64,000 bases of DNA. Origin: an uncultured Smithella sp. GTDB taxonomy: Bacteria; Desulfobacterota; Syntrophia; Syntrophales; Smithellaceae. How positions within the stretch are numbered: position 1 is the first letter of the stretch; the number at the start of each line of letters is the position of its first letter. Below the pieces are notes generated by a model, which was not told the DNA's origin, ran no database searches, and was given only the letters and a program-made list of their open reading frames with translations. Location of the stretch: contig CAYXZW010000002.1 in the NCBI GenBank assembly GCA_964469905.1, positions 34,230-98,229 on the forward strand, given 5' to 3'. This document shows positions 35,850 to 64,000 of the stretch, in pieces. The position numbers and the translations under genes are program-made.

Positions 35850-35850
35850 A

Positions 35851-40543: not shown

Positions 40544-40574
40544 AATTTTATTTCCTGATAATAGCTTTAAATTT

Positions 40575-40642: not shown

Positions 40643-40700
40643 CGAATGAGGGTTGTGAAAGGGGCCAAGATCAAGGCTCTTAAATCGCCAAACAAAATTC

Positions 40701-46672: not shown

Positions 46673-47953
46673 TCAGTCTGAAAATTCCTCCGTCATGTAT
46701 CCTTCTTTCTGGGAAATGATTTTTACCTGGGGGAGCGGAATAATAAACTTGCCGCCATTATTATAATAATCCTTCGTTTTTCCGAGAATCTCTGCAATAA
46801 AACTCCAAGCAAAGACAAGGATGTAATCGGGCACTTTATGGGACAACAAATCCCGAGAAACAATTGGAAAATGGGAACCGGGTGTATAGAAACCGTGTTT
46901 CGCGGGAGCATCGTCGATGATACAATCCAGATGGCTGTTATCGATATTGCAGTATTGAATAATTGTATTAGCCCTTCCGGAGGCACCGTATCCCCATATC
47001 GTTTTTCGATCCTTCTTCAGTTGAGCCAACAGCCTAAGCAAGGTTATTTTTGTTTCTTCAACTTTATGTGCATAATCCAGGTAGGTTTCAACCCGGTTAT
47101 ATTTTTTATTCAATTCATCCTGTCTTAAATCAAGGACAGCCTCAGAAACTGCCTCCTTCTTCAAGGTACCCCGCTTCCGGACATAATAACGCATGGATCC
47201 GGCATGGATCGGGATTTTTTTAACATCAAATACTTCCATGTCAAACTGCTTGAAAAAATTATCGAGAGCAAGCAGCGAATAGTAATAAAGGTGTTCGTGA
47301 TAGATCATGTCATATTGCAATGCTTCGATGATGTTGCCAAGATAGTGCACTTCGAAAACGAATACACCATCAGCGGCCAACAATTTGTGGATCCCCCTTG
47401 TCACATCGTGCATATTTTCTATGTGGGCAAAGACGTTATTGGCAACGATTAAATCAGCGTGCCCATGTTCACTTACTATTTTATGAGCCGTTTTTTCTGA
47501 AAAGAAGTCATTAATGACAATAATATGCGGATTGTTGATAGCCCTGATAATGTTACTTGCGGGATCGATGCCAATCACCTTTTTGATTCCCTGATCATAA
47601 AGGGGATTAAGAAGGACTCCGTCATTACAGCCAAACTCGACAACCATTGATTTTTTCGGATCTAAAAAACGGGTAGTGACTTCGCCCGCATATTCCTTGA
47701 AGTGTTCTCTTAGCGTGGCAATTGCCGAGGAGTAATAGAAGTAATTTCGGAAAAGAACATCAGGTGAAACACTGTTGACAATCTGTAGAAGATAACAATT
47801 ATTACAGAAGCAAATCTGCAAAGGATACTTTGTTTCCTCAGCAAATTGTTCCGGTTTCAGGAATGCACCGGCAAGGGCTACTTCTCCAAAGTCAATAATG
47901 AGAGTTAAATCATCGCTGTTGCAGAATCTGCAAAACCATTCCTTTTTATTCAC
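46673..47953 (-). CDS. NDP-hexose C-methyltransferase family protein (TylCIII-like: zinc-binding N-domain + class I MTase + C-methyltransferase C-domain)
   Basis: 426 aa; CRFCNS...CNNC zinc motif, YPLQICFCNNCYLLQ, VEFGCNDG, YDMIYHEHLYYYS, WGYGASGRANT, DDAPAKHGFYTPGSHFPI. Confidence 0.75.
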   Translation of the reverse strand: MNKKEWFCRFCNSDDLTLIIDFGEVALAGAFLKPEQFAEETKYPLQICFCNNCYLLQIVNSVSPDVLFRNYFYYSSAIATLREHFKEYAGEVTTRFLDPKKSMVVEFGCNDGVLLNPLYDQGIKKVIGIDPASNIIRAINNPHIIVINDFFSEKTAHKIVSEHGHADLIVANNVFAHIENMHDVTRGIHKLLAADGVFVFEVHYLGNIIEALQYDMIYHEHLYYYSLLALDNFFKQFDMEVFDVKKIPIHAGSMRYYVRKRGTLKKEAVSEAVLDLRQDELNKKYNRVETYLDYAHKVEETKITLLRLLAQLKKDRKTIWGYGASGRANTIIQYCNIDNSHLDCIIDDAPAKHGFYTPGSHFPIVSRDLLSHKVPDYILVFAWSFIAEILGKTKDYYNNGGKFIIPLPQVKIISQKEGYMTEEFSD

Positions 47954-51906: not shown

Positions 51907-52737
51907 TTATTTCCTGAGATGGATGACGCCCCATCTTCCAAATCGTGAAAAAAATGGATATCTATCCAGCAAAAAACGGTCTAAAGCATTGATCCATGCG
52001 ATCAGACGATAATTGCGCCTCACGGGATAGCCCCCGATCAGTCTGTCCAGCCTCGAAAACAGCTGAAACGGCTTATATTCGACGACACTGAAATATGGTC
52101 TGAAATCATTAAGGTCATTCGGATATAATTGTCTTTCATCCTCAGTAATCACCAGATCCTTCCCTTTGTTGGGCACCATCCACCTGACCATAGATGAATG
52201 CCTGATCCTTCTCAAAAGTGGGCTGAATGCTATCGGTTCAATGAATACCGCCTCACCTTTTTCTTTCATGACCCTCGATATTTCGGCGGCGGCAATTTTA
52301 ATGTTCACGTGATGGAGAATCCCAACGCCGAAAACAAGGTTAAAACATCCGGACTCATAGTTCATTTTTTCGGCCGTCATTAGCTCAACCTTGACCTGTC
52401 CGCCAACCCCGTTGAGTTCGGCTCGTAAAATTGCTACTTTTATACTCTCCGGTGAAATGTCGAAAGCACGGACGGATGCCCCTTTTTTCGCTAGGATAAC
52501 ACAACTCTTGCCGCTTCCACATCCCATATCCAGGACACTTTTCCCATGCAGATCGCCGAGAATGCTATAGGCATAACGGTAATGATCCGGATAATTTCGC
52601 AGTGCTGAATCAACATCCACGTATAGCTTTTTCCCCTGCTCATTCTTCGTCTGAGAGAGAATTTCCAGTGCCATTTCGTCAAAGAAAGCGGCTTCCCTTT
52701 GATGAATAGCAGCCAATGCGTCTTTATTTTCTGTCAT
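51907..52737 (-). CDS. Class I SAM-dependent methyltransferase
   Basis: Motif I VLDMGCGSGKS, FGVGILHHV, MKEKGEAVFIEP; the internal ATG at 52737 (MTENKD) is preferred over the listed start at 52800, which lies inside the upstream GT4. Confidence 0.75.
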   Translation of the reverse strand: MTENKDALAAIHQREAAFFDEMALEILSQTKNEQGKKLYVDVDSALRNYPDHYRYAYSILGDLHGKSVLDMGCGSGKSCVILAKKGASVRAFDISPESIKVAILRAELNGVGGQVKVELMTAEKMNYESGCFNLVFGVGILHHVNIKIAAAEISRVMKEKGEAVFIEPIAFSPLLRRIRHSSMVRWMVPNKGKDLVITEDERQLYPNDLNDFRPYFSVVEYKPFQLFSRLDRLIGGYPVRRNYRLIAWINALDRFLLDRYPFFSRFGRWGVIHLRK

Positions 52738-53917
52738 CGCCCTCCGTCCTGCCCCTTTCCAGTAGTTCGTCATAAATATTTGAGAGCTTTTTCGCTTCAA
52801 CCGGCCAGTTAAAGTTCTCCCGCACCTTGGCTGTGTTTTGCTTCATTATTGCGAATTCTGTTTCCGACTCAAAAATCCCATCGATTGCTCCCGCAATGGA
52901 AACGGGATCATCAGGATCAAAAAGCTTGCCGATGCCGTATTCTTTTACAAAAAATTCCAGTTCGGGGAAGTGGCAGGCAACTATGGGCAGACCAACGGCA
53001 ACGTATTCAAAAAGCTTGTTCGGCGCACAATAATAATTATTCAGGCAAGTATTACGGTAAGTGATCAGACCTACATCGGCGGATGCCGTATAATCGAGAA
53101 GATCACCATAAGGAACATAATCGTGGAAAAATACTTTTTTCTCCAGACCTCGCCCGTGTACCTGACGCACCAACTCTTCCTTCAGAGGCCCTTGCCCGAG
53201 CAGAACCAGAATGATATGGTCCTGAAAATATTCAGCGGCTCCAACAATATTTTCAATTCCCCGACCGGGAGAAAGGCCGCCCTGATAGAGCACGATTTTT
53301 TGCTTTCCGGTTGTTTCGGCATCCGCGAATTCGATCAGTTTACGCGGTGTACGTAAATGCATGTTTTCTTCCCGGGGAGGACAGTTCATGATAACATCAG
53401 GAATGGAAATACCCGGGTACATTTGCGCCATGATCAGGGCACGCGAGCGATTCGCAGCCAGCACCCTGTCCGTTTTCCGAATCAAGAAACCCTCTAGCCG
53501 TTTTGCAAATTTTTGCGTAAGGCCTGATAGATTTCCCTGTTCAGTCCATAGTTCGTGCGAATCATAGATAATTTTTGCGCGATTCCATTTCCCTGCAATC
53601 AATGCGGGCAGAAGGGTCGGGAGATCGTGTGCATGATACACGTCGCATTTCTTCCCGATGCCCCGCACAGATGCCCTTATCAGGAATTCCATATACTTCA
53701 GTGCTTTGAATAACAGGGAAGAAGGAAGGAAACTGGATTTTAATTCAATCCTCTCTATTTGGATATCGCCCTTTTGTTCTTTCTCACAAGAATGGTCGCC
53801 TAACACATCAATGATATGAACTCTGTGATATTCCGAAAGACTCTCGGCTTCGCGCAGAACACGGGAATCGAAAATAACATTGGTGTATTCCAAACGAAAC
53901 ATGCATATAATCGCCAC
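52724..53917 (-). CDS. GT4 glycosyltransferase
   Basis: 397 aa; GT-B; donor-domain region APNKLFEYVAVGLPIVACHFPE; GTG start overlapping the upstream stop by 1 nt. Confidence 0.7.
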   Translation of the reverse strand: MAIICMFRLEYTNVIFDSRVLREAESLSEYHRVHIIDVLGDHSCEKEQKGDIQIERIELKSSFLPSSLLFKALKYMEFLIRASVRGIGKKCDVYHAHDLPTLLPALIAGKWNRAKIIYDSHELWTEQGNLSGLTQKFAKRLEGFLIRKTDRVLAANRSRALIMAQMYPGISIPDVIMNCPPREENMHLRTPRKLIEFADAETTGKQKIVLYQGGLSPGRGIENIVGAAEYFQDHIILVLLGQGPLKEELVRQVHGRGLEKKVFFHDYVPYGDLLDYTASADVGLITYRNTCLNNYYCAPNKLFEYVAVGLPIVACHFPELEFFVKEYGIGKLFDPDDPVSIAGAIDGIFESETEFAIMKQNTAKVRENFNWPVEAKKLSNIYDELLERGRTEGDDRK

Positions 53918-55125
53918 TAGTTTACCTTATCCGCAACTTCAGAAAGCGCCAACAGCATCCATGCCTGAGACCATCTCAAATAGGGCGTTTTAATGGTCAA
54001 ATTCTTTTTTTTCATGTAATAGAAGTAGCCTTCTGCATCCTGCATTTCGTCAATCGTCCAAATAAGAAGATTATCCAGAATCTTTCCCGCCCGCGAATCT
54101 AATTCTTTCAGCTCGTTCAGACAGAGGATGCCTTCCGAGCAGGCATGAATGTCCACCGGATAGGTCTGCTCATTTGAAAACTTCGGAATGGTTTCCTCGT
54201 GAAAAAGATGATTCAAATAATACGCAAAGCCTTTCCTTATGGCCTGCATAACTTCCGGGTCTCCGGTATGCCCATAGATGGCATGGAGCATCCGGAGAAC
54301 AAAGCCCGTATGGTAATGGTCCACAATGTTCGGATAGGTATCGGGCTCTCCGAAGTAGGGCCAGGCGCCATCTTGATGCTGACCATCAAGACTGTAGCGG
54401 AGGGAAGCCATGCCCGTTTGCTGAAAGTCAGATCTGTTTAATTCCTTCCCCACCCGTATCAGGAATTCCGCAGTAAAGAGGTTTGCATTATGCACATGCA
54501 TTCTGTCTAGTGGCGTATAGCTAAAGCAGAGACTGTTTTCCGATATCCTGTCCTGATTCAGATCATTTAAAAAAAAATGACAGATTGATTCGCAGATGTC
54601 CAAATATTTTTTATCGCCAAGCACACGATAAGCCCGCCAGAATGCATCCCCGACCGTGAACGAAACGACGGATGATGGTGTTCCCTTCGGGAAGAATACG
54701 TGCGACTGCCAGTCGAAAGGGTATCCCCAGCAGAGTCCGGAGTATCCCGGTGAATAATTATGTTCAAGCCATTCCAGGCACTCTCTCGATTTTTCGAGGC
54801 ACTCCCGTTTCCCTGTTTTTTCGAACAGATTGAGGTAAGCCTTCGCAAAAAGCCCCATCCCTTTTGCATTCACCTGCGGGCGACAGTTCAGCAGTTTGAT
54901 CCAGAAACCAGGCACAAGTCCCATACTTGCAAAAAAGGGATAACGAAAAATCCTGAACGGGAGGATCTTCGGCAACCTTTGTAGTTGCAGGAAAAGTGGT
55001 TTTTCCAGAACGGAAAAGGGATCATATCCGGCCCATCCGTTTCTGGTGATCCACCCGTCCAAGCATGATATTGAATGTGTGACCTTCATGCTTGCCGCGT
55101 CCCCCAACACAATTCGGTTTCCCAA
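53917..55125 (-). CDS. Hypothetical protein, probable alpha/alpha-toroid fold; function unknown
   Basis: 402 aa (listed TTG start; alternative ATG at 55089). Repeated helix-pair pattern with QW-like motifs (LDGQHQDGAWPYFGE, MQDAEGYFYY) and WGYPFDWQS. No signal peptide or TM. Confidence 0.4.
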   Translation of the reverse strand: MGNRIVLGDAASMKVTHSISCLDGWITRNGWAGYDPFSVLEKPLFLQLQRLPKILPFRIFRYPFFASMGLVPGFWIKLLNCRPQVNAKGMGLFAKAYLNLFEKTGKRECLEKSRECLEWLEHNYSPGYSGLCWGYPFDWQSHVFFPKGTPSSVVSFTVGDAFWRAYRVLGDKKYLDICESICHFFLNDLNQDRISENSLCFSYTPLDRMHVHNANLFTAEFLIRVGKELNRSDFQQTGMASLRYSLDGQHQDGAWPYFGEPDTYPNIVDHYHTGFVLRMLHAIYGHTGDPEVMQAIRKGFAYYLNHLFHEETIPKFSNEQTYPVDIHACSEGILCLNELKELDSRAGKILDNLLIWTIDEMQDAEGYFYYMKKKNLTIKTPYLRWSQAWMLLALSEVADKVN

Positions 55126-55183: not shown

Positions 55184-56395
55184 TCAATTGTTTCGCCGAT
55201 GTGAAACCTGCAACAGATTCCGAAATACTTTGATGGTTTCCTCGGCAGACTTCACAGCATTGAATTTTCCAGAAGCCGTCATGGAGGCCTTAGCTCCCAT
55301 CTTCCTTCTCAGTGACGAATCACGGATTAAGGTTTCCAGTGCAATCTTGAGGTCTTCCGGCGCCCCCGGTCGGAAAAGCAGACCGTTCTGCATGTGAGAA
55401 ATGACTTCCGGCCCACCGCCGATATCGGCAACAACAGCCGGACGGGAACAAGCCATGGCCTCTTTGATGCTCTGTCCCATGCACTCCGTCATCGTCTGAG
55501 GGGAGGCAACCAGAATATCCGTTGCGGCATAGAAACTGGGGAGATCTGATTCCGGGACAAAGCCCATCAGCCTGATATTTTCATTCCCCATGGTGCGTAC
55601 CTGATTCTGAAGATGTTCGTAGTCGTCGCCGATTCCTCCAATCAGAAAGCAGACATCCTGCCGATTACCGAGAAGTCGCACAGCATCGAGAAATACATCT
55701 ATCTTCTGGCGGAGCGCAAGTCCCAGAATAGAGACCACGACAGATTGCAGTGGAATGCCATTCTTCTCCCGGTATGAGATTCCATCGAGATCGGGTCGGA
55801 ATTTATCCAGATCGATACCCGCATAAACAACACTATAATGGTCGGGATCAGCACCCAATTGCATGCCACCCCTCTTGCAGTGTTCGCTGGTTGATATCAC
55901 CCAGGATGCATTCTTCAGAACGAACTGTGCCATTCTCTTGAAGCGCCGGTCTGTTTTGGTGACAAGCCATGTCTGTCCATAGGAGACGATGACGCAGGGA
56001 ATGCCGTGAATGCGCGACTGCAAGATAGCCGAAAGGCCAGTAATATCGGTGTGGTGAGCATAGAGCAGATCGAGTTGATAATCCTGAATGACTTTTGCTA
56101 GTACGCAATTATATTTATAAAATTGAATAAAAGCACTCGGCCTGGATAGAGGAAATTTCACAAAAAAGGTGAGGAACTTATAAATCGGCAATGGCATGCT
56201 TCCAGAACAGTTCCTGTAATCAATAAACGTAGTTCCCATGGGAGGATTGGGATTCTCAGGCAATCTGATCGGTATCAGGAAAGATTCAATATCATCATGA
56301 TTCCAGTTCCGCAGATGATTTTCAATCAATCTGGTAACTCCGCCGTGAGGCGGCGGGCATGGACCGATAATTCCTATTTTGATTTTGTGTTTCAT
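55184..56395 (-). CDS. GT4 glycosyltransferase
   Basis: 403 aa; N-terminus IGIIGPCPPPHGGVTR, donor domain ECMGQSIKEAMACSRPAVVADIGGGPEVI (E-x7-E region). Confidence 0.75.
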   Translation of the reverse strand: MKHKIKIGIIGPCPPPHGGVTRLIENHLRNWNHDDIESFLIPIRLPENPNPPMGTTFIDYRNCSGSMPLPIYKFLTFFVKFPLSRPSAFIQFYKYNCVLAKVIQDYQLDLLYAHHTDITGLSAILQSRIHGIPCVIVSYGQTWLVTKTDRRFKRMAQFVLKNASWVISTSEHCKRGGMQLGADPDHYSVVYAGIDLDKFRPDLDGISYREKNGIPLQSVVVSILGLALRQKIDVFLDAVRLLGNRQDVCFLIGGIGDDYEHLQNQVRTMGNENIRLMGFVPESDLPSFYAATDILVASPQTMTECMGQSIKEAMACSRPAVVADIGGGPEVISHMQNGLLFRPGAPEDLKIALETLIRDSSLRRKMGAKASMTASGKFNAVKSAEETIKVFRNLLQVSHRRNN

Positions 56396-56447: not shown

Positions 56448-58025
56448 TTACCATGTGTCAAAAGTCATATGAATCCATCTTAAAATCTTCATCTCCGCAG
56501 TATAACGGAAATCCCTTTCAACCCACTTACGATAGGCCCGATGACCAGCCACACTTCTTACAAACTCCGGCATTTTAAGGAGAAGCAGACGAAAGAAAGT
56601 TTTCAGATTGTGATTTCGAAAGCCCCTGTTAACGCGACCAACAACATTCAATTGCCTATTCTCGCGGCCATATTTAGAACACAAACTGGCGGCTGCCATA
56701 TATTTCGCATCGGGGTGCCAGAGTGTGTGCGAAAGATCACCGATTCTGAAATCGCCCCAGGCTTTCAATGTAAGGGGAGGTTGGAATCCCGCCTTAACCA
56801 CTTCGTAATGCATGGGGGTCGCGGGGCAAGGTGCATAGAGGAAAATCCGGCCGATAAGCATTTTTTCCTGGTATTTTTCATTCAGGTAATCAATGAGGTC
56901 TATTGTCTTTTGCAGATCCTCTCTCGTTTCGCCGGGGAAACCCGTCATGAAATTTGTCCAGAATAATAGTCCGGCCCCGCAAATCTGTTCCGCTGCGTTA
57001 TGGATATCTTCAAGTGTGCAATCCTTCTTTATATAATCAAGAACTTCTTGCGATCCTGATTCTGCCCCCACATAAACTTCCGTCAGTCCCGCTTTTTTTG
57101 CCTTTTCCCAGAAGGCCTGGTCCGTCCTTCGGACATACTGGGCACGACAGGATGTGTGCCACTTGAGATCGAGATTCATTTCGATCAGCCCGTCCATGAT
57201 CGCCTGCGCCCGCTTGAGATCCGCGAAAAAGCAGTCATCAACAAAATGGATTTTATTCGGGTTGAACTTTTCTTTGAGAAATTTCATGTCTTTTAGTACT
57301 TGCTCAACACTTTTCTTGCGGAATTTTCTTCTGTGGACAATCAAAACATCACAGAAAGCGCAGCGATGTGGACAGCCTCGTTCCGATTGGTAGAGCAAAG
57401 TGTTTTTGATGTCGTAGTAATCCGTAGATATCAGATCATATGCAATAGGCAACTGTTCATCAAAATTCATGAAAGGACGATCGGGGTTATTAAGGATTTG
57501 TCCGTTCTTTTTCCAGGATATCCCTTGAATAGTTGACAGATCGGAGTTATCAGCCAGGGCATGTGCCAACTCAACACATGTTAGCTCTCCTTCGCCGCGA
57601 ACAATTATATCAACATACTCCGATGTCCGAAGTGATTGTTCCGGGGTCAGCGTCACGTGCACGCCACCCCACACAATAGGGAGATCAGGTCTGGTCTTCC
57701 GAACGATCTCCGCACAGTATAAACCGAATCGGATCATGCTGCCGGTCAGTGCCGTAATGCCTGCAAACACAGTGCGATCGTCGATTTCTTCGCGAATCCT
57801 TGTGCGGGCATCCTCAACTCGGCCATCGATGATCACCACTTCGAATCCCTCGCGGCGCAAGTAGGGGGCAATCGCAAGCAGGGAAAGAGGAAGTGTCATT
57901 CCCCTGCCAAACAGGTGGCCCAGGAAGTTTTGAACAAAATCAGCTTGTGCGAGGAAATCCGGGATCGATCCCCTTAGGTAGAAACCAATTTCACCGGGCA
58001 TAATTAGAACAATTTTATTTTTCAT
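56448..58025 (-). CDS. Class B (cobalamin-binding domain) radical SAM enzyme
   Basis: N-terminal B12-binding-like Rossmann (VVIIDGR...FAGITALTG...PIVWGGVHVT), cluster motif CPHRCAFC, GAESGSQEVL. ATG at 58025 is preferred over the listed TTG at 58049. Confidence 0.8.
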   Translation of the reverse strand: MKNKIVLIMPGEIGFYLRGSIPDFLAQADFVQNFLGHLFGRGMTLPLSLLAIAPYLRREGFEVVIIDGRVEDARTRIREEIDDRTVFAGITALTGSMIRFGLYCAEIVRKTRPDLPIVWGGVHVTLTPEQSLRTSEYVDIIVRGEGELTCVELAHALADNSDLSTIQGISWKKNGQILNNPDRPFMNFDEQLPIAYDLISTDYYDIKNTLLYQSERGCPHRCAFCDVLIVHRRKFRKKSVEQVLKDMKFLKEKFNPNKIHFVDDCFFADLKRAQAIMDGLIEMNLDLKWHTSCRAQYVRRTDQAFWEKAKKAGLTEVYVGAESGSQEVLDYIKKDCTLEDIHNAAEQICGAGLLFWTNFMTGFPGETREDLQKTIDLIDYLNEKYQEKMLIGRIFLYAPCPATPMHYEVVKAGFQPPLTLKAWGDFRIGDLSHTLWHPDAKYMAAASLCSKYGRENRQLNVVGRVNRGFRNHNLKTFFRLLLLKMPEFVRSVAGHRAYRKWVERDFRYTAEMKILRWIHMTFDTW

Positions 58026-58032
58026 CCTCACC

Positions 58033-59193
58033 TTAGCTGGCTCGATCAAATATTTCTTTTATTGATGCGATAATATATTCAACGGCTTCCTCCGCCAGAG
58101 AGGGATACAGGGGAAGGTTAATCCCCGATAAACCGAAACGGACGCAGTTTTCCAAATTCCCTACCTTTCGGACCTGCTGATAGGGGGGCATTAAATGAAC
58201 GGGGTAAAAAGTTGGCCTGACCTCGATGTTGTATTCCTTCAATTTAGAAATTAGGGCATCTCTATTCAAGAAGGAATCATTTTGTAGAAATGCGCAAAAA
58301 AGCCAGTCAATTTTCTTTCCATACGGACTTATTGAATAAGTTCGTAACCCATTAATACTATCAATTCCTTCATGATATAATTCGGCAAGTTCAGCACGGC
58401 GACTAAGGAATTCATTAATTTTCTCTAATTGTGCTACGCCTATTGCCGCATTAAGATTCGTAAGCCTGAAGTTAAAACCGATTTCATCATGCCAGTAGCG
58501 CCTTGCTTTGCTCATGCCGTGATCGCGGAGCTTTCTCATTCTTTTATCCAGCGTGCTGTCATTCGTGACGCAGAGACCTCCCTCGCCGGTTGTCATGACC
58601 TTGTTCCCGTAGAAGCTAAAACAGCCGATGTGCCCTATGGATCCGACCATTTTCCCCGCACATTCCGCGCCGTGGGCTTCGGCTGCATCTTCTATAACGA
58701 AGATATTGTGCTTCTCCGCAAGCCCCATGATGGATTTCATGTCGCACGGATGTCCATAAAGGTGAACCGGCATGATGGCTTTTGTTCTTGGAGTAATGGC
58801 CTTTTCGATTTCAGCCGGATCCATGTTCCAGTGATCAGGCAAGCAATCAACCAAGACGGGAGAGGCGCCTGCATGAAATATTGCATTCACTGACGCCGCA
58901 AATGTCAGAGACGGAACCACCACTTCATCACCCGGTCCTACATCAAGAGCTTTGAGCGCAAGTAGAAGTGCACATGTTCCATTGGATACACTCACTGCAT
59001 GCCGTATTACGAGATAGGATGCAAAATTCTCTTCAAACTGATTGATGTATTTACCGAGCGAGGATATCCACGTCGATCGAACAGCATCCAGAACATATTT
59101 CTCCTCATTGCCCTCAAAAACAATATTGGATATAGGGATCAGAGACATCCGTTTTTTTACCTGCGACCTTTTTTCTTTTGTAACAACATCCAT
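58033..59193 (-). CDS. DegT/DnrJ/EryC1/StrS-family PLP-dependent sugar aminotransferase
   Basis: 386 aa; VSNGTCALLLAL, VVPSLTFAASV, VIEDAAEAHG, PLP-lysine region FSFYGNKVMTTGEGG; the start could be the internal ATG at 59148. Confidence 0.85.
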   Translation of the reverse strand: MDVVTKEKRSQVKKRMSLIPISNIVFEGNEEKYVLDAVRSTWISSLGKYINQFEENFASYLVIRHAVSVSNGTCALLLALKALDVGPGDEVVVPSLTFAASVNAIFHAGASPVLVDCLPDHWNMDPAEIEKAITPRTKAIMPVHLYGHPCDMKSIMGLAEKHNIFVIEDAAEAHGAECAGKMVGSIGHIGCFSFYGNKVMTTGEGGLCVTNDSTLDKRMRKLRDHGMSKARRYWHDEIGFNFRLTNLNAAIGVAQLEKINEFLSRRAELAELYHEGIDSINGLRTYSISPYGKKIDWLFCAFLQNDSFLNRDALISKLKEYNIEVRPTFYPVHLMPPYQQVRKVGNLENCVRFGLSGINLPLYPSLAEEAVEYIIASIKEIFDRAS

Positions 59194-59195: not shown

Positions 59196-60587
59196 TTAAG
59201 CACCGAACATTTTTTCTTTTATAATGACAAAATTCTGAAGAACACCTGTTTTAATCCGCGCCAACTGGTTTATGATGAATACTTTAACAGTCAGAACGTC
59301 TTCTCCTTGAATCATCAAATCACCTTTAAGGGTACAATTCGAAATATGAAGAAAGACGGCAATCTGTATAAGGGCAAGACAAAACATAGCAACAAGAAAA
59401 GAAACGGCCGCACCTGCAATGCCAAAAGGAGGAATCATGAGCATTGCGACAACAACTTGAACGAGGAATGGTATAATTGGAATTTTAACCGACAGATCAA
59501 CCCGTCCTACACCTGCAAAATACTGGCTCAGGACACTTGCAGCGCTGGAGATGATTAATCCCGGCAGAAGTAACCAGAAGGGAACGACCATCGGAAGGTA
59601 ATCACGGCCATACAGGATGTAGACGATAGGTTTGATCGCTACGAATGCCAACGCACCGAGTAATAAGAGTATCAATAATGCCACCCGAAAGGCACGGGCA
59701 ATAAGTTTGGCTGAGACCCCATCATTATCTGTTTTTGAAACTCTTGGAAAAAGAATGGTGTTCATGGCGTCAGGGATCTTATTCATCAGGACTCCTTTGT
59801 TAAGCGCCATGTTAAAAAATGCAACTTTTGCAGGGACAAGATAAAAGACAACAATAAGATTTGTTACATAAGAATTCAGAGAACTTATTAAGGTAGCGGC
59901 ATATATTTTGGAACCATAAGAAAATAAGTCTTTGACGAGAGGAAGATTGAATAAAGGTCCATTCCTCTTGACCCGTCCGAACGTTATGACACCATAAAGA
60001 AGACCCAGCAGCATCGATAAAAGAGAAGGGATAATAACGGCCAGCAGCCCCCATCTGAAAATAACAAGGAGCACAATGCTCAGCCCTGATGACACGAGGG
60101 CTTTGATGACAACCATTCTGTTATAATTCTTTACGTCTTCACGATAAAGGAGAAGATAGCTGTAATTCAGATACAGAAATTGAAGGGGAATCTGCAACAG
60201 CATGAAATATATAAACAGATGTACGTCCGCAGAGCTATTGCCAAAAAGAAGTCGATAACACCAGTCCAGATTAGCAAGGAAAAGACCGATGATCACGCCG
60301 CTTGTCAGGATAGCGATAAAGTTCAAGGTGAAAACGACATCACCGACATGATACTTTTTTTTCCCAAGAAAATAGACAGCCGCAATATCGAACTTTACTC
60401 TTCCAAAACCCTCTGCATACGCCGGTATCATCTGGAGGATGATCCACAAACCCAATACTGCCGGGCCCATCATACGGGCAATGATGACACCGGTTACAAG
60501 GTTTGTAAAAAAGAGAAATATGTCTCTTTTAAACAATGAAAAAGATTTCTCGGATAAGCTTTGCTGCTGTATTATTTCTTCTGTCAT
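59196..60587 (-). CDS. wzx: Wzx-type oligosaccharide flippase (MOP superfamily)
   Basis: 463 aa; ~12 TMs; N-terminal pattern KRDIFLFFTNLVTGVIIARMMGPAVLG typical of polysaccharide biosynthesis/flippase proteins. Confidence 0.75.
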   Translation of the reverse strand: MTEEIIQQQSLSEKSFSLFKRDIFLFFTNLVTGVIIARMMGPAVLGLWIILQMIPAYAEGFGRVKFDIAAVYFLGKKKYHVGDVVFTLNFIAILTSGVIIGLFLANLDWCYRLLFGNSSADVHLFIYFMLLQIPLQFLYLNYSYLLLYREDVKNYNRMVVIKALVSSGLSIVLLVIFRWGLLAVIIPSLLSMLLGLLYGVITFGRVKRNGPLFNLPLVKDLFSYGSKIYAATLISSLNSYVTNLIVVFYLVPAKVAFFNMALNKGVLMNKIPDAMNTILFPRVSKTDNDGVSAKLIARAFRVALLILLLLGALAFVAIKPIVYILYGRDYLPMVVPFWLLLPGLIISSAASVLSQYFAGVGRVDLSVKIPIIPFLVQVVVAMLMIPPFGIAGAAVSFLVAMFCLALIQIAVFLHISNCTLKGDLMIQGEDVLTVKVFIINQLARIKTGVLQNFVIIKEKMFGA

Positions 60588-60599: not shown

Positions 60600-62252
60600 C
60601 TACCAACCTTCGATAACTGTATTTTCAGGATTTAAAATACAATTACAGACATGATCCAGATATTTATTTTTACCCGGAGCGAGATCATCCAGTGAATTAA
60701 AGGAGAATCCATCGAACCGGCTATCATCATAAGCCTGCTTGGTCAAATTCCAGGGGATTGAAGTCTTCAAAAAATAAAAATACGCAAACAGTTCGATCAT
60801 CTCTTTATCAGCGTTCATGGGTTCGGCTTCACCCAGCAGAATTTTCCTGTATTCCATGATCGTTTGAGGCTCATAAGCGAGTCCCATGCCGCTGTATGGA
60901 GGCTGTGCCGCAACCAGAACGGGAATGCCCTGCAAAAGCATCTCCAAGCCGAGTGTGCCATAAAAAACCACGCCCAAATCTATATATTGAAAAAGATCGT
61001 AGGGCTTTATTTTTAACTCCGGCCTTATGATGGTTACATTTTCAGGCATCTTCGGATATTTCTCGCGGATAATGTCTTCTATCCCTTTCAAAGAAGAAAA
61101 CGAATCGTACTTTTCTCCCGGATGAGGTTTAATGTATAAGTGAATATTATCCTTATCCTTTATCATTTCAATAGTCTCAATTACCCATTCCGCAATGCCG
61201 GGAAATAAAACACCCAGTTCACCGATATCCCACAAAACGTTTGAAAACAGGAAGATATTCCTCTTATTCTCGTCAATGCTAATGATATCTCTGATATTCT
61301 CATTTCTCCCGAAATACCCAAATCCCTTAAACATGTCCGTTTCACCCTTGAATCTTGCATCGACAAGTTCTTTCAAGGTTTTTCGTTCTTTGTCATCAAG
61401 CTTATTATTGCCGCGGAACTGCACGTAACGAGAAAATCTGGATTGATCTTCATAAAGATCCATCATGTTGACCATGATACCGTAATAATCAACGGGCGTG
61501 ATGGAGATAGTTGTCAGCTGGACGCCATTTTTTTTAAAGAACCTGTAATACGGCTCAGCCACACTGTAGACATACATACTGTTCATTACGATATCAGGTT
61601 GATAAGTTTCATACAGTCGCTCAGCGATTTCTATGCCCATCATGGAGGTTGTCAAATGATTCTTTCTCACCTCCGCGAGGAGTGCTTCATCTGAAGTCAC
61701 AGATCCAAAAAAGAAGCGCTCAACAGAGGCATTCGTCATCGGAATTATATCGATGTCCTTGTATCTGTGTTGTGAGGGGTAGTTTTGAGAGATCGAAGCG
61801 GCTTTTCCTCTCAGTTCTTCCCTTTCGTCTGGCGATATAAAATCAGCCGGCTCGACGAGATTAAGACCAAATGACGGCAATACATGCTTAAGGTTAAAGC
61901 GGCAATTAAGACAAGGATCTTTCATCTTATAACTTCGTACATTCTTTGTTTCGCATCCATCCAGGTAAGAGTTGCATACGATAATCTTGATTTCGCCTCC
62001 CCTCATCTCCAGGGCTTTACACAGAACAAACATTTGATACATCTGGTAATGCTGCGTTTCATTTTGAATTAACAAGATTTTTTTTAATTTCGCCGTTGCT
62101 TTCCCGTTGGATTGAGGGCTGGCAAACTGGAGTTGTTTCTGTAATTTTCCTTTTAATTTAAAGTTATATTTCAACCATAACCTAAGCCACATGAGGGAAG
62201 GAAAGCGTAATAATATCGAAATCAAGAAAGTTTTAACAGATTTAATCATCAA
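60600..62252 (-). CDS. Hypothetical GT-B-like protein with a Cys4 motif; weak resemblance to capsule-synthesis (KpsS/KpsC-type) transferases
   Basis: 550 aa. N-terminal amphipathic/hydrophobic segment. Rossmann-like KILLIQ...IKIIVC followed by CNSYLDGC...CLNC. C-terminal half has IFLFSNVLWD, HLYIKPHPGE, VVFYGTLGLEMLLQGIPVLV. Confidence 0.35.
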   Translation of the reverse strand: MMIKSVKTFLISILLRFPSLMWLRLWLKYNFKLKGKLQKQLQFASPQSNGKATAKLKKILLIQNETQHYQMYQMFVLCKALEMRGGEIKIIVCNSYLDGCETKNVRSYKMKDPCLNCRFNLKHVLPSFGLNLVEPADFISPDEREELRGKAASISQNYPSQHRYKDIDIIPMTNASVERFFFGSVTSDEALLAEVRKNHLTTSMMGIEIAERLYETYQPDIVMNSMYVYSVAEPYYRFFKKNGVQLTTISITPVDYYGIMVNMMDLYEDQSRFSRYVQFRGNNKLDDKERKTLKELVDARFKGETDMFKGFGYFGRNENIRDIISIDENKRNIFLFSNVLWDIGELGVLFPGIAEWVIETIEMIKDKDNIHLYIKPHPGEKYDSFSSLKGIEDIIREKYPKMPENVTIIRPELKIKPYDLFQYIDLGVVFYGTLGLEMLLQGIPVLVAAQPPYSGMGLAYEPQTIMEYRKILLGEAEPMNADKEMIELFAYFYFLKTSIPWNLTKQAYDDSRFDGFSFNSLDDLAPGKNKYLDHVCNCILNPENTVIEGW

Positions 62253-62263: not shown

Positions 62264-63664
62264 CTAATTATCGGCAGGGTTTTTTGACATACGATAGGTA
62301 GTTGTTTTAATCACATCACTATCATTTAAAGGGATATGGAGATCGTTTTTCAATCTGATCAGTTCTGCCGTAACAGTATCGATCAGTTCTTGATCGGACA
62401 TTTGCGTAAGGTTTACATGCAAATCCTGACGATCCCCAATCCGGAGCAGATATTCTTCTTCATCTCGGATCAACCCTTTTTCTTGTGCCATACGGTAAAT
62501 GGGTGTCCCCGGAAGAGGAAGAACAAACCCGGCGGAAGGATAAACGCCTGCCTGCCTGCAGATATCAAAGGTCATTCGAATGGTTTCTTTAGTTTCCTGA
62601 GGATAGCCGAATACAACTGATGTCAACGGTGATAGACCGGCCCTTTGAGCCGTATTCATCTGCTCAACAAATTCTTCGGGCTTCATGTGCTTGTTCATAG
62701 CGGCAAGTATTTCCTGTGATCCAGACTCCAGTGCGCCGCCTATAGTAAGAGCCCCCAGATCTTTACAACGTCTGAGTAAATCCAAATCTTTTTTTTGAAA
62801 GAGATTGCCTCTGGGATTAACTGACCAAAAAAAAGATATACCTTCCTTTTCGATAGCATTACAAAGTTCTACCGCTCTCTTTTTCGTGTTCAGGGTTAGT
62901 TCATCCCAAAAGGCCAGATAATTGGCTTTGCATTCTTTCTGAAGACAATTCATTCTATTGATGACTGCCTGAAAAGGATAATACCGGTATTTATCTCCCT
63001 TGAAGGCATGGGTGCAGAAGGTGCAGTCAAAAGGGCATCCCCTTGCCGTATTCAACGGAACGACTCTCATCTCGGCTTTCGGCAACGGAAAAGGTTCCGC
63101 AACCAGCATATACGAAACATCGAGATACTTATCAAAATCAAACATGGAATAATCCGGGAACGGGACATCTTCGATATTTGGAATGGCCTTACGTTTTCCG
63201 GTCACTATCACATTTCCTTTATAACGAAATGCAATTCCGGGAAGATCAGCCAGGGACTTTCCGGTTCTCAGGCAATCCGCAATATCGACAATCGTCCGGT
63301 CACCTTCGCCGATAACTGCTATATCAACCTCCGGAACACATGAAAGGAGGATGTTCGGCACTGCCGCAACCGTATTCCCAACGACTAGAACTGATTCCGG
63401 CAATACGCGCTTTACCTGTTGACAGAGTCTTTTAGTAATTTTATACGAGGAAACTATGTTGCCCAGGCCAATGATGTCATATTTATTTTTTGACAGAATC
63501 TTATCTATTTCATCGTCTGTATAACGATAAAGGTCTATATCCAGAATGTCCGGTTTATATCCTGCTTTGTCTAAAGCAGTGGCTATGCAGGCGAGACCGA
63601 CAGGGATAATCTTCACCGGACTCTCGGGACGGAGACATGGATTTATCAATAATATTCTTGTCAT
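62264..63664 (-). CDS. Class B (cobalamin-binding domain) radical SAM enzyme
   Basis: 466 aa; B12-binding-like N-domain (ILLINP...IIGLGNIVSS...VVGNTVAA), cluster motif CPFDCTFC, GALESGSQEIL. Confidence 0.8.
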   Translation of the reverse strand: MTRILLINPCLRPESPVKIIPVGLACIATALDKAGYKPDILDIDLYRYTDDEIDKILSKNKYDIIGLGNIVSSYKITKRLCQQVKRVLPESVLVVGNTVAAVPNILLSCVPEVDIAVIGEGDRTIVDIADCLRTGKSLADLPGIAFRYKGNVIVTGKRKAIPNIEDVPFPDYSMFDFDKYLDVSYMLVAEPFPLPKAEMRVVPLNTARGCPFDCTFCTHAFKGDKYRYYPFQAVINRMNCLQKECKANYLAFWDELTLNTKKRAVELCNAIEKEGISFFWSVNPRGNLFQKKDLDLLRRCKDLGALTIGGALESGSQEILAAMNKHMKPEEFVEQMNTAQRAGLSPLTSVVFGYPQETKETIRMTFDICRQAGVYPSAGFVLPLPGTPIYRMAQEKGLIRDEEEYLLRIGDRQDLHVNLTQMSDQELIDTVTAELIRLKNDLHIPLNDSDVIKTTTYRMSKNPADN

Positions 63665-64000
63665 TGATTAATACCTGCTGATTTGGATTTACGCCAGTTC
63701 CATTCCGGTTCAGAATCAATTACTGGGAATAGTTGATTGAACCTTCTCAAATAATCGTCAGATTCTGCCTGAGAAAACCATGGAACCCTTTTGGGGCTTC
63801 TGTTTGTGTCAATAAAAAATGGATCTTCGGCGTATTCTTCAAAACTTTTTGGCGCTTTGTAACCCTTCTCAATAGCCATCTGACAGAGCTTGGATCCCGG
63901 ATACGGGGTATAAAAACAGACTTGAAATTTTACTTTGGGGGTGATCTTTAAACACTCGTTCAGGAATTGTCTATTTTCTTCCAGATCTGTCAAGGGACCT
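63661..64000 (-). CDS. C-terminal part of a further radical SAM enzyme (class B-like C-terminal region); gene starts beyond the window
   Basis: The frame is open to the window edge (the listed start is an internal TTG). FQVCFYTPYPGSKLCQMAIEKGY parallels the F(V/M)xGxPG...Y segment of the neighbouring class B enzymes. The stop overlaps the next start (ATGA). Confidence 0.55.
   Translation of the reverse strand, partial: GPLTDLEENRQFLNECLKITPKVKFQVCFYTPYPGSKLCQMAIEKGYKAPKSFEEYAEDPFFIDTNRSPKRVPWFSQAESDDYLRRFNQLFPVIDSEPEWNWRKSKSAGINQ

What the first reader, a model, noticed from the sequence alone, without database searches (positions are those of the whole stretch)
56448..59193. Class B (B12-type) radical SAM enzyme coupled to a DegT aminotransferase inside a surface-glycan locus
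**Seen.**
- The ~525-aa protein has an N-terminal cobalamin-binding-type Rossmann domain.
- It also has a radical SAM core (CPHRCAFC, GAESGSQEVL).
- It starts 7 nt after the stop of a DegT-family sugar aminotransferase.

**Established.** Class B radical SAM enzymes typically methylate unactivated carbon or phosphorus centres. GenK and GenD1 act on aminosugars in gentamicin biosynthesis, and Fom3 acts in fosfomycin biosynthesis. Others catalyse ring contraction or other rearrangements.

**Inference.**
- The pair may aminate and then radical-methylate, or otherwise rearrange, a nucleotide sugar.
- I am not aware of a characterised O-antigen or capsule pathway that uses a class B radical SAM enzyme, so this is a candidate for new glycan chemistry.
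- It also implies that surface-glycan synthesis depends on cobalamin.
Basis: partly seen in the sequence, partly recalled or inferred. Interest (0 to 1): 0.55.

Follow-up and report, generated by a model that had tools for sequence, protein, structure and literature searches.

The report
B12-type radical SAM enzyme in O-antigen locus
A gene in the surface-sugar (O-antigen) cluster of an uncultured anaerobe encodes a vitamin-B12-type radical enzyme from a small uncharacterised group found only in such clusters, so it probably adds an unusual modification, most likely a C-methyl group, to the cell-surface glycan.

Summary
On the minus strand, a 525-aa ORF (56448-58025) has a B12-binding Rossmann domain and a radical SAM core (C218-x3-C222-x2-C225; GAESGSQEVL at 320-329). 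It starts 7 nt after a DegT aminotransferase (58033-59193).

- **Cofactor features.** The cobalamin fingerprint is present: S/T91-x-L93, then G120-G121 26 residues later. There is no His ligand, and a hydrophobic Leu aligns with the lower-axial residue of TsrM and OxsB. The AF2 model (pLDDT 90.8) best matches TsrM, OxsB, AprD4, MgmA, CysS and TokK.
- **Setting.** The gene lies in an LPS/O-antigen-type locus of at least 55 kb in a Smithella-like anaerobe. It is one of three mutually divergent (~24% identity) B12-type radical SAM genes there, downstream of an acyl-carrier module.
- **Relatives.** Close orthologues (47-87% identity) are rare. All ten loci with readable context, the window included, are polysaccharide loci.
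- **Link to DegT.** A DegT orthologue is adjacent in 5 of the 10 loci, so the link is real but not obligate. The DegT is 46% identical to GDP-perosamine synthase.
- **Family placement.** No curated family claims the enzyme (best hit HpnJ, 154 vs 578 bits). I found no paper describing a class B radical SAM enzyme in surface-glycan synthesis.

The substrate, the chemistry and actual B12 use remain inferred. It is a new member of a known enzyme class in an unexplored role.

The parts
56448..58025 (-). rSAM1: 525-aa class B (B12-binding domain plus radical SAM) enzyme, the subject of the finding
   Evidence: ORF. Pfam domains. AF2 model pLDDT 90.8. Foldseek top hits are TsrM, OxsB, AprD4, MgmA, CysS and TokK. 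No NCBIfam family cutoff is reached.
57567..57893 (-). Cobalamin-type Rossmann domain (residues 45-153). It carries P46-L47 in place of DxHxxG, T91-A-L93 (the SxL motif) and W119-G120-G121-V-H123 (the GG motif).
   Evidence: PF02310 at 63.7 bits. Column conservation. OxsB N186 and TsrM R69 (lower-axial residues) both align to L93 (read against PMC12931638).
56892..57380 (-). Radical SAM core (residues 216-378). It includes CX3CX2C at 57351-57374 (C218, C222, C225) and GAESGS at residues 320-325.
   Evidence: PF04055 at 75.2 bits. These residues are invariant in 40 homologues.
56451..56708 (-). Basic helical C-terminal extension (residues 440-525; 18 K/R vs 6 D/E, net +12). It is specific to the orthogroup and may be a membrane- or phosphate-binding surface.
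   Evidence: AF2 helices. Charge and hydrophobic moment. Distant homologues cover only about 73-90% of the query.
58026..58032 (-). 7-nt spacer GGTGAGG (Shine-Dalgarno-like) between the DegT stop and the rSAM1 ATG
   Evidence: Sequence. The median gap in the locus is 12 nt.
58033..59193 (-). DegT-family PLP aminotransferase, GDP-sugar C4-aminotransferase type (perosamine synthase / LegC-like). The catalytic Lys motif FSFYGNK is conserved.
   Evidence: PF01041 at 422 bits. LegC family 354 bits (cutoff 420) and PseC 300 bits. The closest solved structure is Caulobacter GDP-perosamine synthase at 360 bits and 46% identity over 358 residues, against PglE at 160 and PseC at 153.
59196..60587 (-). 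Wzx-type flippase
   Evidence: PF13440 and PF01943. Orthologues lie near rSAM1 orthologues in L089, L006, L001, L007 and L008.
60600..62252 (-). 550-aa GT-B-like protein of unknown family, co-conserved with rSAM1 orthologues. It is a candidate ulosonic-acid-type glycosyltransferase.
   Evidence: Only weak Pfam hits (Capsule_synth, GT52). AF2 pLDDT 90.8. Best TM-scores are to the beta-Kdo transferases WbbB and KpsC, about 0.5. Homologues occur in L005 (directly upstream of the radical SAM gene), L006 and L008. By matching contig lengths, homologues also lie on the contigs of P0003 and P0014.
62264..63664 (-). rSAM2: second B12-domain radical SAM enzyme (466 aa), 24% identical to rSAM1
63661..64000 (-). 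C-terminal part of rSAM3, a third B12-domain radical SAM enzyme (455 aa in full), cut by the window end
   Evidence: Translation. The full gene is in L097, which is identical to the window over 8617 shared bases.
55184..56395 (-). GT1-family (GT-B) glycosyltransferase immediately downstream of rSAM1
   Evidence: PF00534 and PF13692. The L089 copy is 73% identical, but the GT1 genes that follow other orthologues are only 23-27% identical.
53917..55125 (-). C5-epimerase-like / (alpha/alpha)6-toroid-like protein, syntenic in L089
   Evidence: PF06662 at 31.9 bits. 79% identical in L089. Heparinase II/III-like genes sit at the corresponding place in L001 and L003.

Best explanation
rSAM1 is a genuine class B radical SAM enzyme: an N-terminal cobalamin-type Rossmann domain, a [4Fe-4S]/SAM TIM-barrel core, and a basic helical C-terminal extension. 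It is co-transcribed inside the O-antigen-type locus of a Smithella-like (Syntrophales) anaerobe.

It belongs to a small, uncharacterised orthogroup that is dedicated to surface-polysaccharide loci.

**Most likely mechanism (inferred).** The enzyme cleaves SAM reductively to give the 5'-deoxyadenosyl radical. That radical abstracts a hydrogen from an unactivated sp3 carbon of a sugar residue. A methyl group is then delivered from methylcobalamin, which a second SAM regenerates. This is the GenK/TokK-type mechanism.

**Most likely substrate (inferred).** A 4-amino-4,6-dideoxyhexose-derived residue made by the neighbouring GDP-sugar C4-aminotransferase. The reaction would occur on the cytoplasmic side, on the nucleotide sugar or, equally plausibly, on the undecaprenyl-PP-linked repeat unit, before Wzx flips it.

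**What is shown.** The architecture, the cofactor motifs, the fold, the operon position, and the glycan-locus context of every orthologue locus that could be read.

**What is inferred.** Cobalamin use, methyl transfer, the identity of the substrate, and the stage at which the enzyme acts.
For: **Architecture and motifs**
- Pfam B12-binding plus Radical_SAM domains.
- CX3CX2C and GxESGS are invariant.
- S/T91-x-L93 followed by G120-G121 at the canonical spacing. S/T is present in 40 of 40 homologues, and the L93 position is hydrophobic in 37 of 40.
- OxsB N186 and TsrM R69, the lower-axial residues, both align to L93. The 2026 review associates a hydrophobic lower-axial residue with radical methylases.
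- V227 lies where TokK has W215 and QCMT has V.

**Fold**
- AF2 pLDDT 90.8.
- Foldseek top hits are exclusively proteins with the N-terminal-B12-domain architecture.
- The cobalamin-free AprD4 does not align over its N-terminal domain (-1.8 bits).

**Genomic context**
- All ten loci holding a 47-87% orthologue are polysaccharide loci: window/L097, L089, L001, L003-L008 and L099. They carry GT1/GT2, Wzx, Wzy_C, NeuB or GDP-heptose genes.
- A DegT orthologue (48-74% identity) is adjacent in 5 of the 10 loci, in inverted order in L005.
- In L089, rSAM1 is the best-conserved gene of the block: 86% against 66-79% for its neighbours.

**Closest curated families**
- Most of the nearest NCBIfam families are C- or P-methyltransferases: PhpK, QCMT, HpnR, KedN5 and the RiPP C-methyltransferase subfamily. 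ApyD, which I recall as a C-methylase, also scores high.
- Precedents acting on sugars are GenK/GenD1, and MoeK5 in moenomycin biosynthesis (PMC9204698).

**Host**
- LpxB is 71-73% identical to Smithella MAG proteins, which points to a strict anaerobe and fits an oxygen-sensitive enzyme.
Against: - No biochemical or genetic data exist for any member of the orthogroup.
- No curated family threshold is reached. The best hit is HpnJ at 154 bits against a cutoff of 577.6, and HpnJ is a proposed non-methylase.
- DegT is not adjacent in half of the orthologue loci (L001, L003, L007, L008, L099). The substrate therefore need not be the aminotransferase product.
- The locus already carries five class I methyltransferases and a TylC3-type sugar C-methyltransferase (46673-47953), so a methyl group on the glycan would not by itself implicate rSAM1.
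- An ACP-based acyl module lies just upstream and offers a non-sugar substrate.
- The lower-axial assignment rests on sequence alignment alone. TokK W76 lies just outside the stretch of TokK that aligned.
- B12-type domains exist that do not bind cobalamin, AprD4 being one example.
Confidence: 0.5

Rival explanations
1. The enzyme is a radical rearrangement or elimination enzyme rather than a methylase. It would use the 5'-deoxyadenosyl radical, with cobalamin as an electron sink or not at all. Possible reactions are ring contraction of an aminosugar (HpnJ/OxsB-like), dehydration or deoxygenation of a diol or amino-alcohol (AprD4-like; compare the DesI/DesII logic of aminating and then removing by a radical step), or epimerisation of a sugar in the repeat unit.
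For: - The best NCBIfam hit is HpnJ (154 bits).
- HpnJ is proposed to contract the pyranose ring of a lipid-linked glucosamine. At stringent threshold it clusters with Fom3 and MoeK5 (PMC9204698).
- OxsB gives the best profile hit among solved structures (124 bits).
- AprD4 is among the top structural matches.
- An aminotransferase sits immediately upstream, as in the DesI/DesII pair (that pairing is from my own knowledge).
Against: - The HpnJ score is far below its cutoff, and ApyD, BchE and PhpK score almost the same.
- Leu at the aligned lower-axial position and the conserved GGxH motif shared with TokK resemble methylases. The non-methylases OxsB and TsrM have polar residues at the lower-axial position.
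- The N-terminal domain of AprD4 does not align.
Confidence: 0.2
2. The substrate is not the sugar ring but an acyl group destined for the amino sugar. An acid is loaded by the AMP-ligase onto the 87-aa carrier protein. The B12-type radical SAM enzymes elaborate it by C-methylation of the pantetheine-bound substrate, as CysS and TokK do. The AAC(3)-like N-acyltransferase then transfers it to the 4-amino group made by DegT. The O1 antigen of Vibrio cholerae, in which perosamine is N-acylated through an rfbKLMNO ACP/ligase module, is a comparable case (from my own knowledge).
For: - L097 is identical to the window over 8617 bases and extends it upstream.
- Its gene order is HMGL-like, AMP-binding ligase, methyltransferase, PF04199 cyclase, a PP-binding carrier (23.5 bits, cutoff 20.8), methyltransferase, AAC(3)-like plus DUF4910 fusion, rSAM3, rSAM2, the 550-aa GT-B-like protein, Wzx, DegT and rSAM1.
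- The same module accompanies the 65% orthologue in L001.
- No N-acetyltransferase for the DegT product is visible in the window part of the locus.
- The solved CysS and TokK structures contain pantetheinylated substrates (entry titles).
Against: - rSAM1 orthologues occur without any AMP-ligase or carrier gene within 10 kb in L003-L008 and L099.
- rSAM2 and rSAM3, not rSAM1, adjoin the acyl module.
- The three enzymes are only about 24% identical to one another.
Confidence: 0.15
3. DegT and rSAM1 are operon neighbours with no shared substrate. DegT simply supplies GDP-perosamine or a LegC-type intermediate. rSAM1 modifies a different residue of the repeat unit, for example the one added by the downstream glycosyltransferase or by the 550-aa GT-B-like protein.
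For: - DegT is not adjacent in 5 of 10 orthologue loci.
- The 7-nt spacing is typical of the locus, where the median is 12 nt.
- A glycosyltransferase lies within two genes downstream in the window, L089, L001, L003, L006 and L007.
- Homologues of the 550-aa protein accompany rSAM1 orthologues at least as often as DegT does.
Against: - Among the five loci whose orthologue is at least 61% identical, four keep a DegT that is 67-74% identical next to the gene.
- This holds even where the gene order is inverted (L005) or a PglD-like gene is inserted nearby (L006).
- That pattern is what selection for co-inheritance would give.
Confidence: 0.35

Closest known systems
Cobalamin-dependent radical SAM C-methyltransferases acting on sugars: GenK and GenD1 (gentamicin), Fms7 (fortimicin), MoeK5 (moenomycin)
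   Same: - Same domain order: an N-terminal B12-type Rossmann domain followed by a CX3CX2C radical SAM barrel.
- The substrates are (amino)sugar carbons that classical SAM methyltransferases cannot activate.
- To my knowledge MoeK5 acts on a lipid-linked saccharide, which parallels an undecaprenyl-PP-linked repeat unit. The review I read says only that MoeK5 methylates a carbon centre in moenomycin A biosynthesis (PMC9204698).
   Different: - Those enzymes belong to antibiotic pathways of actinomycetes. This one sits in an LPS O-antigen-type locus of an anaerobe.
- No sequence-level membership could be tested because no models or sequences were available.
- Here the chemistry is only inferred.
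HpnJ (TIGR03471), hopanoid-associated B12-type radical SAM enzyme
   Same: - It is the best-scoring curated family (154 bits).
- Its proposed substrate is an aminosugar (glucosamine) on a lipid.
   Different: - The score is far below the 577.6-bit cutoff, and the match covers residues 102-413 only.
- No hopanoid genes lie nearby.
- HpnJ is a proposed ring-contracting non-methylase.
Structurally characterised class I B12-dependent radical SAM enzymes: TokK, CysS, QCMT/MgmA, TsrM, OxsB
   Same: - Same fold. Foldseek probability is 1.0, with TM-score 0.58-0.65 normalised to the query.
- The GG motif is shared. The conserved GGxH is shared with TokK, and V after the cluster motif is shared with QCMT.
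- There is no His ligand to cobalt, which matches the base-off binding seen in all solved members.
   Different: - Sequence identity in the structural alignments is only 14-19%.
- The C-terminal domain differs: here it is a basic helical extension (residues 440-525).
- The known substrates are carbapenams, aromatic carrier-bound acids, a protein glutamine, tryptophan or a nucleotide. None is a glycan.
GDP-perosamine synthase (PerA/RfbE) and LegC, for the neighbouring DegT
   Same: - 46% identity over 358 residues to Caulobacter GDP-perosamine synthase.
- LegC is the best NCBIfam family.
- The catalytic Lys motif is conserved.
   Different: - The gene scores below the LegC (354 vs 420) and PseC (300 vs 423.5) cutoffs.
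- No GDP-mannose 4,6-dehydratase, NeuB or CMP-sugar synthetase is visible in the roughly 55 kb of locus that could be read. Both L005 and L006 carry NeuB, and L005 also carries a CMP-sugar synthetase-type gene.

Membership tests
Class B (cobalamin-dependent) radical SAM enzymes, class I architecture | CX3CX2C motif binding the radical SAM [4Fe-4S] cluster, within a TIM-barrel-type core | tested here: met
   C218, C222 and C225 are invariant in 40 homologues. PF04055 scores 75.2 bits against a cutoff of 29.5. The AF2 core matches radical SAM barrels.
Class B (cobalamin-dependent) radical SAM enzymes, class I architecture | Rossmann-type B12-binding domain N-terminal to the radical SAM domain | tested here: met
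   PF02310 scores 63.7 bits against a cutoff of 32.1, over residues 45-153. The AF2 model alternates strands and helices across residues 4-142. Whole-chain Foldseek matches are TsrM, OxsB, MgmA, CysS and TokK.
Class B (cobalamin-dependent) radical SAM enzymes, class I architecture | Cobalamin-binding fingerprint (SxL ... GG) without the DxHxxG histidine (base-off, His-off binding) | tested here: met
   T91-A-L93 is present, with S or T in 40 of 40 homologues. G120-G121 are invariant and lie 26 residues after L93. P46-L47 replace the His loop. The canonical spacing of 26-28 residues is from my own knowledge. The base-off mode is described in PMC12931638.
Class B (cobalamin-dependent) radical SAM enzymes, class I architecture | Hydrophobic residue at the lower axial face of cobalt, as in radical methylases (polar in TsrM and OxsB) | tested here: inconclusive
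   OxsB N186 and TsrM R69 both align to L93, which is L, M, I or V in 37 of 40 homologues. This rests on alignment only, and TokK W76 lies just outside the stretch of TokK that aligned.
Class B (cobalamin-dependent) radical SAM enzymes, class I architecture | Actual binding of cobalamin and cobalamin-dependent turnover | not testable with these tools
   This needs purified, reconstituted protein. AprD4 shows that a B12-like domain can lack the cofactor.
HpnJ (TIGR03471) | Score at or above the curated equivalog cutoff (577.6 bits), and a hopanoid gene context | tested here: not met
   The score is 154.4 bits. The neighbours are glycan genes, not hpn genes.
PhpK / Sden_1168 P-methyltransferases (TIGR04479, NF038361) | Score at or above the curated cutoff (600 and 575 bits), and a phosphonate or phosphinate context | tested here: not met
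   The scores are 133.5 and 100.5 bits. No PEP mutase gene is in the window. Phosphonate-type genes do appear near the orthologues in L003 and L007.
AprD4 family radical SAM diol-dehydratase (NF033070) | Score at or above the cutoff (500 bits) | tested here: not met
   The score is 40.3 bits. The N-terminal domain of AprD4 does not align to the family profile.
GenK / GenD1 / Fom3 / MoeK5 subgroups | Placement in the same sequence-similarity cluster or clade | not tested
   No models or sequences for these families were available in the tools. RadicalSAM.org and SFLD could not be queried.
DegT/DnrJ/EryC1 sugar aminotransferases (the neighbouring gene) | PF01041 above the gathering score, and a conserved PLP lysine | tested here: met
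   The score is 422 bits. FSFYGNK aligns with FSFFGNK of GDP-perosamine synthase.
LegC (TIGR04181) / PseC (TIGR03588) equivalogs (the neighbouring gene) | Score at or above the curated cutoff (420 and 423.5 bits) | tested here: not met
   The scores are 354.3 and 299.9 bits. The closest solved structure is GDP-perosamine synthase.

The most novel reading that the evidence does not exclude
rSAM1 would be the founding member of a family of cobalamin-dependent radical SAM enzymes that modify unactivated carbons of cell-surface glycans. The modification would be a C-methyl, or possibly a rearranged carbon skeleton. It would be made on a GDP-linked or undecaprenyl-PP-linked 4-amino-4,6-dideoxyhexose or ulosonic-acid-type residue. 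O-antigens of uncultured anaerobes would then carry C-branched or chain-extended sugars made by radical chemistry and dependent on cobamide supply. With three divergent paralogues plus a carrier-protein module in one locus, several such modifications could be made on one glycan.
Probability: 0.4. Interest if true: 0.65.

Novelty: new member of a known kind. Interest (0 to 1): 0.45.

Why it matters
**Why the chemistry would matter.** Class B radical SAM enzymes are known from antibiotic, cofactor, lipid and protein-modification pathways. Neither of the two reviews I read, nor any paper I could find, places one in O-antigen, capsule or other surface-polysaccharide synthesis.

If this orthogroup really modifies glycans, three things would follow:
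- Radical C-H functionalisation would join the repertoire of bacterial glycan tailoring.
- Sugars should exist that current glycan databases lack.
- Cell-surface structure in anaerobic consortia would be tied to cobamide availability.

**What the survey adds for follow-up.**
- The enzyme is co-inherited with a GDP-sugar C4-aminotransferase and a Kdo-transferase-like GT-B protein.
- Loci of this type usually carry two or three divergent B12-type radical SAM genes, often with a further radical SAM gene (SPASM-type in four of them).

**Limits.**
- All members come from uncultured organisms.
- The superfamily is huge: 52,372 cluster representatives at E <= 0.001.
- The architecture is entirely canonical.

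This is therefore an attractive uncharacterised subfamily rather than a new kind of system.

Tried and rejected
1. **A gene fusion as evidence.** P0112 (772 aa) appeared to fuse a methyltransferase, a GT1 domain and a B12-type radical SAM enzyme. Pfam shows only fragments of the first two domains (profile positions 48-94 of 95 and 2-92 of 172). It is probably a mis-call or decayed genes, so I did not use it as fusion evidence, although its context is again glycan.
2. **GTDB species genomes.** The best relative is only 34% identical, so no named genome carries an orthologue. Contexts of these distant relatives are mixed. About a third show glycosyltransferases by a crude phmmer screen, and many are arrays of paralogues in Bathyarchaeota. 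The glycan link is therefore claimed only for the 47-87% orthogroup.
3. **Metagenome scan with the single protein.** It added only two close loci, L089 and L090, and L090 appears to be the same contig as L001.
4. **Exact-sequence look-ups.** Those for rSAM2 and for the 100%-identical LpxB (P0122) found nothing. The locus was extended instead through P0241, giving L097. About 7 kb further upstream on that contig could not be read, so whether NeuB or Gmd lie there is unknown.
6. **The downstream GT1 as obligate partner.** I rejected this. The GT1 genes that follow other orthologues are only 23-27% identical.
7. **Tight spacing as evidence of special coupling.** I rejected this because the spacing is typical of the locus.
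8. **Literature.** Nine searches combined radical SAM, cobalamin or B12 with O-antigen, polysaccharide, capsular, glycan or legionaminic acid. None returned a relevant characterised case. The library excludes most subscription journals, so this is absence of evidence only.

Full report

Yes. Both genes lie on the minus strand.

The radical SAM ORF ends at 56448. Pfam finds a B12-binding domain at residues 45-153 (63.7 bits, cutoff 32.1). It also finds a Radical_SAM domain at residues 216-378 (75.2 bits, cutoff 29.5). CPHRCAFC is C218-x3-C222-x2-C225, and GAESGSQEVL is residues 320-329. The three cysteines and the G-x-E-S-x-S residues are invariant in an alignment of 40 homologues.

The DegT gene (58033-59193) scores 422 bits on PF01041. 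Its TAA stop is followed by GGTGAGG, which resembles a Shine-Dalgarno site, and then the ATG. The 7-nt gap is correct but unremarkable. The 36 genes of this minus-strand cluster have a median spacing of 12 nt.

**2. The surroundings**

The left part of the window encodes LolC/D-type proteins, BamA, Skp, LpxD, LpxA, a GnnA/GnnB-like pair, LpxB, an MsbA-like transporter, a lipid A acyltransferase and heptosyltransferases.

From 17.8 kb to the window end, one minus-strand cluster encodes the following:
- A PglF-like dehydratase and a PglC-like initiating transferase.
- Many SDR epimerases and dehydratases, and two WecB-type 2-epimerases.
- About eight glycosyltransferases, a Wzy_C protein and a Wzx-like flippase.
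- Two AsnB-type amidotransferases and a carbamoyltransferase.
- Five class I methyltransferases and a TylC3-type sugar C-methyltransferase.
- A radical SAM enzyme without a B12 domain, and the B12-type radical SAM genes.

This is an LPS core and O-antigen-type region of a diderm bacterium. LpxB is 100% identical to a protein on a 156-kb NCBI contig and 71-73% identical to proteins of Smithella MAGs. The host is therefore a Syntrophales-like strict anaerobe.

rSAM1 is not alone. rSAM2 lies at 62264-63664 (466 aa), and the tail of rSAM3 lies at 63661-64000. Both are also B12-type radical SAM genes, and the three are only about 24% identical to one another.

A Logan contig, L097, is identical to the window over 8617 shared bases and continues the locus upstream. 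Its gene order is:
- an HMGL-like enzyme;
- an AMP-binding ligase;
- a methyltransferase;
- a PF04199 cyclase;
- an 87-aa PP-binding carrier protein;
- a second methyltransferase;
- an AAC(3)-like N-acyltransferase fused to DUF4910;
- rSAM3, rSAM2, the 550-aa protein, Wzx, DegT and rSAM1.

**3. The protein itself**

*Cofactor motifs.* The N-terminal domain carries the cobalamin fingerprint. S/T91-x-L93 has S or T in 40 of 40 homologues. The invariant G120-G121 follows 26 residues later. There is no DxHxxG histidine; P46-L47 occupy that loop. All solved class B enzymes bind cobalamin base-off (PMC12931638).

*Lower-axial residue.* Two independent alignments place OxsB N186 and TsrM R69, the residues beneath the cobalt, opposite L93. 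That position is hydrophobic in 37 of 40 homologues. The same review associates a hydrophobic residue there with radical methylases and a polar one with the non-radical or non-methylating enzymes. This is a hint, not proof.

*Fold.* An AlphaFold2 model built on the 40-sequence alignment is confident (pLDDT 90.8, pTM 0.88). Its best PDB matches are TsrM, OxsB, AprD4, MgmA/QCMT, CysS and TokK. MiaB and RimO come next. The family profile does not align to the N-terminal domain of AprD4, which lacks cobalamin.

*C-terminal extension.* Residues 440-525 form a helical extension with net charge +12, while the rest of the protein is net negative. This would suit a membrane surface or a (pyro)phosphate-bearing substrate, but that is speculation.

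*Curated families.* None is reached. HpnJ scores 154 bits (cutoff 578), ApyD 150, BchE 135 and PhpK 133.

**4. Relatives and their contexts**

*Size of the group.* In a search of 5.8 billion clustered proteins, the full-length relatives with 47-87% identity number only about 18 clusters. All come from metagenomes or MAGs, including Thermodesulfobacteriota, Nealsonbacteria and Margulisbacteria. Identity then drops to 44% or less. Against 1.84 billion cluster representatives there are 52,372 hits at E <= 0.001 and 4,369 at E <= 1e-30, but only about two representatives fall at orthologue level. No GTDB species genome has a relative above 34% identity.

*Glycan context.* I could read the neighbourhood of ten distinct orthologue loci, and all ten are polysaccharide loci:
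- window/L097 and L089 (86% identity, syntenic Wzx-DegT-rSAM-GT1-epimerase-like);
- L001 (65%);
- L005 and L006 (61-62%, both with NeuB, L005 also with other nonulosonic-acid genes);
- L003, L004, L007 and L008 (53-55%);
- L099 (47%, next to GDP-heptose genes).

*Neighbours.*
- A DegT orthologue (48-74% identical to the window's) is adjacent in five loci. In L005 the order is inverted.
- Homologues of the 550-aa protein accompany the gene in the window, L005, L006 and L008. By matching contig lengths, they also lie on the contigs of P0003 and P0014.
- That 550-aa protein has no family assignment. Its model (pLDDT 90.8) is GT-B-like and superposes best on the beta-Kdo transferases WbbB and KpsC, with TM-scores around 0.5.
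- Most of these loci hold one or two further divergent B12-type radical SAM genes. Four (L003, L004, L006, L008) also hold a SPASM-type radical SAM gene.

**5. The aminotransferase**

It is 46% identical over 358 residues to Caulobacter GDP-perosamine synthase (360 bits). PglE scores 160 bits and PseC 153. LegC is the best NCBIfam family but falls below its cutoff. The PLP lysine motif is conserved.

The gene therefore most likely makes a GDP-linked 4-amino-4,6-dideoxyhexose, which is an ordinary role. No Gmd, NeuB or CMP-sugar synthetase is visible in the roughly 55 kb I could read.

**6. Mechanism**

My best reading, at about 0.5 confidence, is a GenK/TokK-type cobalamin-dependent radical C-methylation. 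The target would be a sugar carbon in a residue related to the DegT product. The reaction would occur on the cytoplasmic face, on the nucleotide sugar or on the undecaprenyl-PP-linked unit.

Three alternatives remain open:
- **A non-methylating rearrangement or elimination.** The best family hit, HpnJ, is proposed to contract the ring of a lipid-linked glucosamine (PMC9204698).
- **Action on the carrier-bound acyl group.** The upstream ligase and carrier module would build this group and attach it to the amino sugar. This reading suits rSAM2 and rSAM3 better than rSAM1, whose orthologues occur without that module.
- **Mere neighbourhood with DegT.** The two genes may share no substrate.

**7. 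Novelty**

Two reviews of the class (PMC9204698, 2022; PMC12931638, 2026) never use the word polysaccharide. The 2026 review also never uses glycan, sugar or lipopolysaccharide. Targeted full-text searches returned nothing relevant.

Class B enzymes that methylate sugars in antibiotic pathways are known: GenK, GenD1, Fms7 and MoeK5. From memory, NCBIfam TIGR04295 ('B12_rSAM_oligo') already flags a different B12-type radical SAM family in an oligosaccharide cassette. rSAM1 scores only 48 bits against it, where the cutoff is 400.

The enzyme is thus a canonical member of a known class, from an uncharacterised orthogroup, in a setting that has not been explored biochemically.

**8. Verdict**

- Interest is moderate (0.45).
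- The finding is a good candidate for new glycan chemistry, but the evidence is contextual, the organisms are uncultured, and the link to DegT is facultative.

Noticed in passing
L097 1-8249 (continuation of the locus beyond window position 64000): An acyl-building module lies directly upstream of rSAM3 and rSAM2. It comprises an HMGL-like enzyme, an AMP-binding ligase, two methyltransferases, a PF04199 cyclase, an 87-aa PP-binding carrier protein and an AAC(3)-like N-acyltransferase fused to DUF4910/DUF2172. The same module is present in L001. It suggests that an unusual N-acyl group is assembled on a carrier protein and put on an amino sugar.
   Followed up: partly
window 62264-63664 and 63661-64000 (minus strand): Two further B12-domain radical SAM genes (rSAM2, and rSAM3 cut by the window end) sit in the same operon. 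Each is only about 24% identical to rSAM1 and to the other. Related glycan loci (L003, L004, L007, L008) also hold two or three divergent copies.
   Followed up: partly
window 60600-62252 (minus strand): A 550-aa protein has no family assignment. Its confident model is GT-B-like and lies closest to the CMP-Kdo-dependent transferases WbbB and KpsC. It has four invariant cysteines (C93, C100, C114, C117) that could bind a metal. It is co-conserved with rSAM1 orthologues.
   Followed up: partly
window 7700-9773 (plus strand): A GFO-type oxidoreductase and a second DegT aminotransferase sit between lpxA and lpxB. This is a GnnA/GnnB-like pair and suggests a lipid A built on 2,3-diamino-2,3-dideoxyglucose.
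   Followed up: no
window 31056-32165 (minus strand): A fourth radical SAM gene (369 aa, no B12 domain) lies between a methyltransferase and an AsnB-type amidotransferase. Its best hits are weak ones to AhbD-, PqqE- and NirJ-type enzymes. SPASM-type radical SAM genes also recur in L003, L004, L006 and L008.
   Followed up: no
L062, L068, L044, L048, L063, L073 (distant relatives, mostly Bathyarchaeota): Arrays of 5 to 8 ORFs matching B12-domain radical SAM enzymes occur within about 20 kb, mostly without recognisable glycan genes. The representative search also found giant proteins with 3-5 tandem matched stretches (P0364 at 2331 aa, P0399 at 2096 aa, P0407 at 2279 aa, P0400 at 1497 aa).
   Followed up: no
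window 30000-42000: G+C content falls to 0.36-0.40 around the Wzy_C gene and its neighbours, against 0.41-0.49 in the rest of the locus. This is typical of horizontally exchanged O-antigen cores.
   Followed up: no
window 51907-52800 and 52724-53917 (minus strand): The two longest-ORF calls overlap by 77 nt, so the start of the methyltransferase (51907-52800) is probably downstream of the TTG listed.
   Followed up: no
L099 4397-5546: An IS3-type transposase sits immediately next to the 47% orthologue in a GDP-heptose-type glycan locus. This fits mobility of these locus segments.
   Followed up: no
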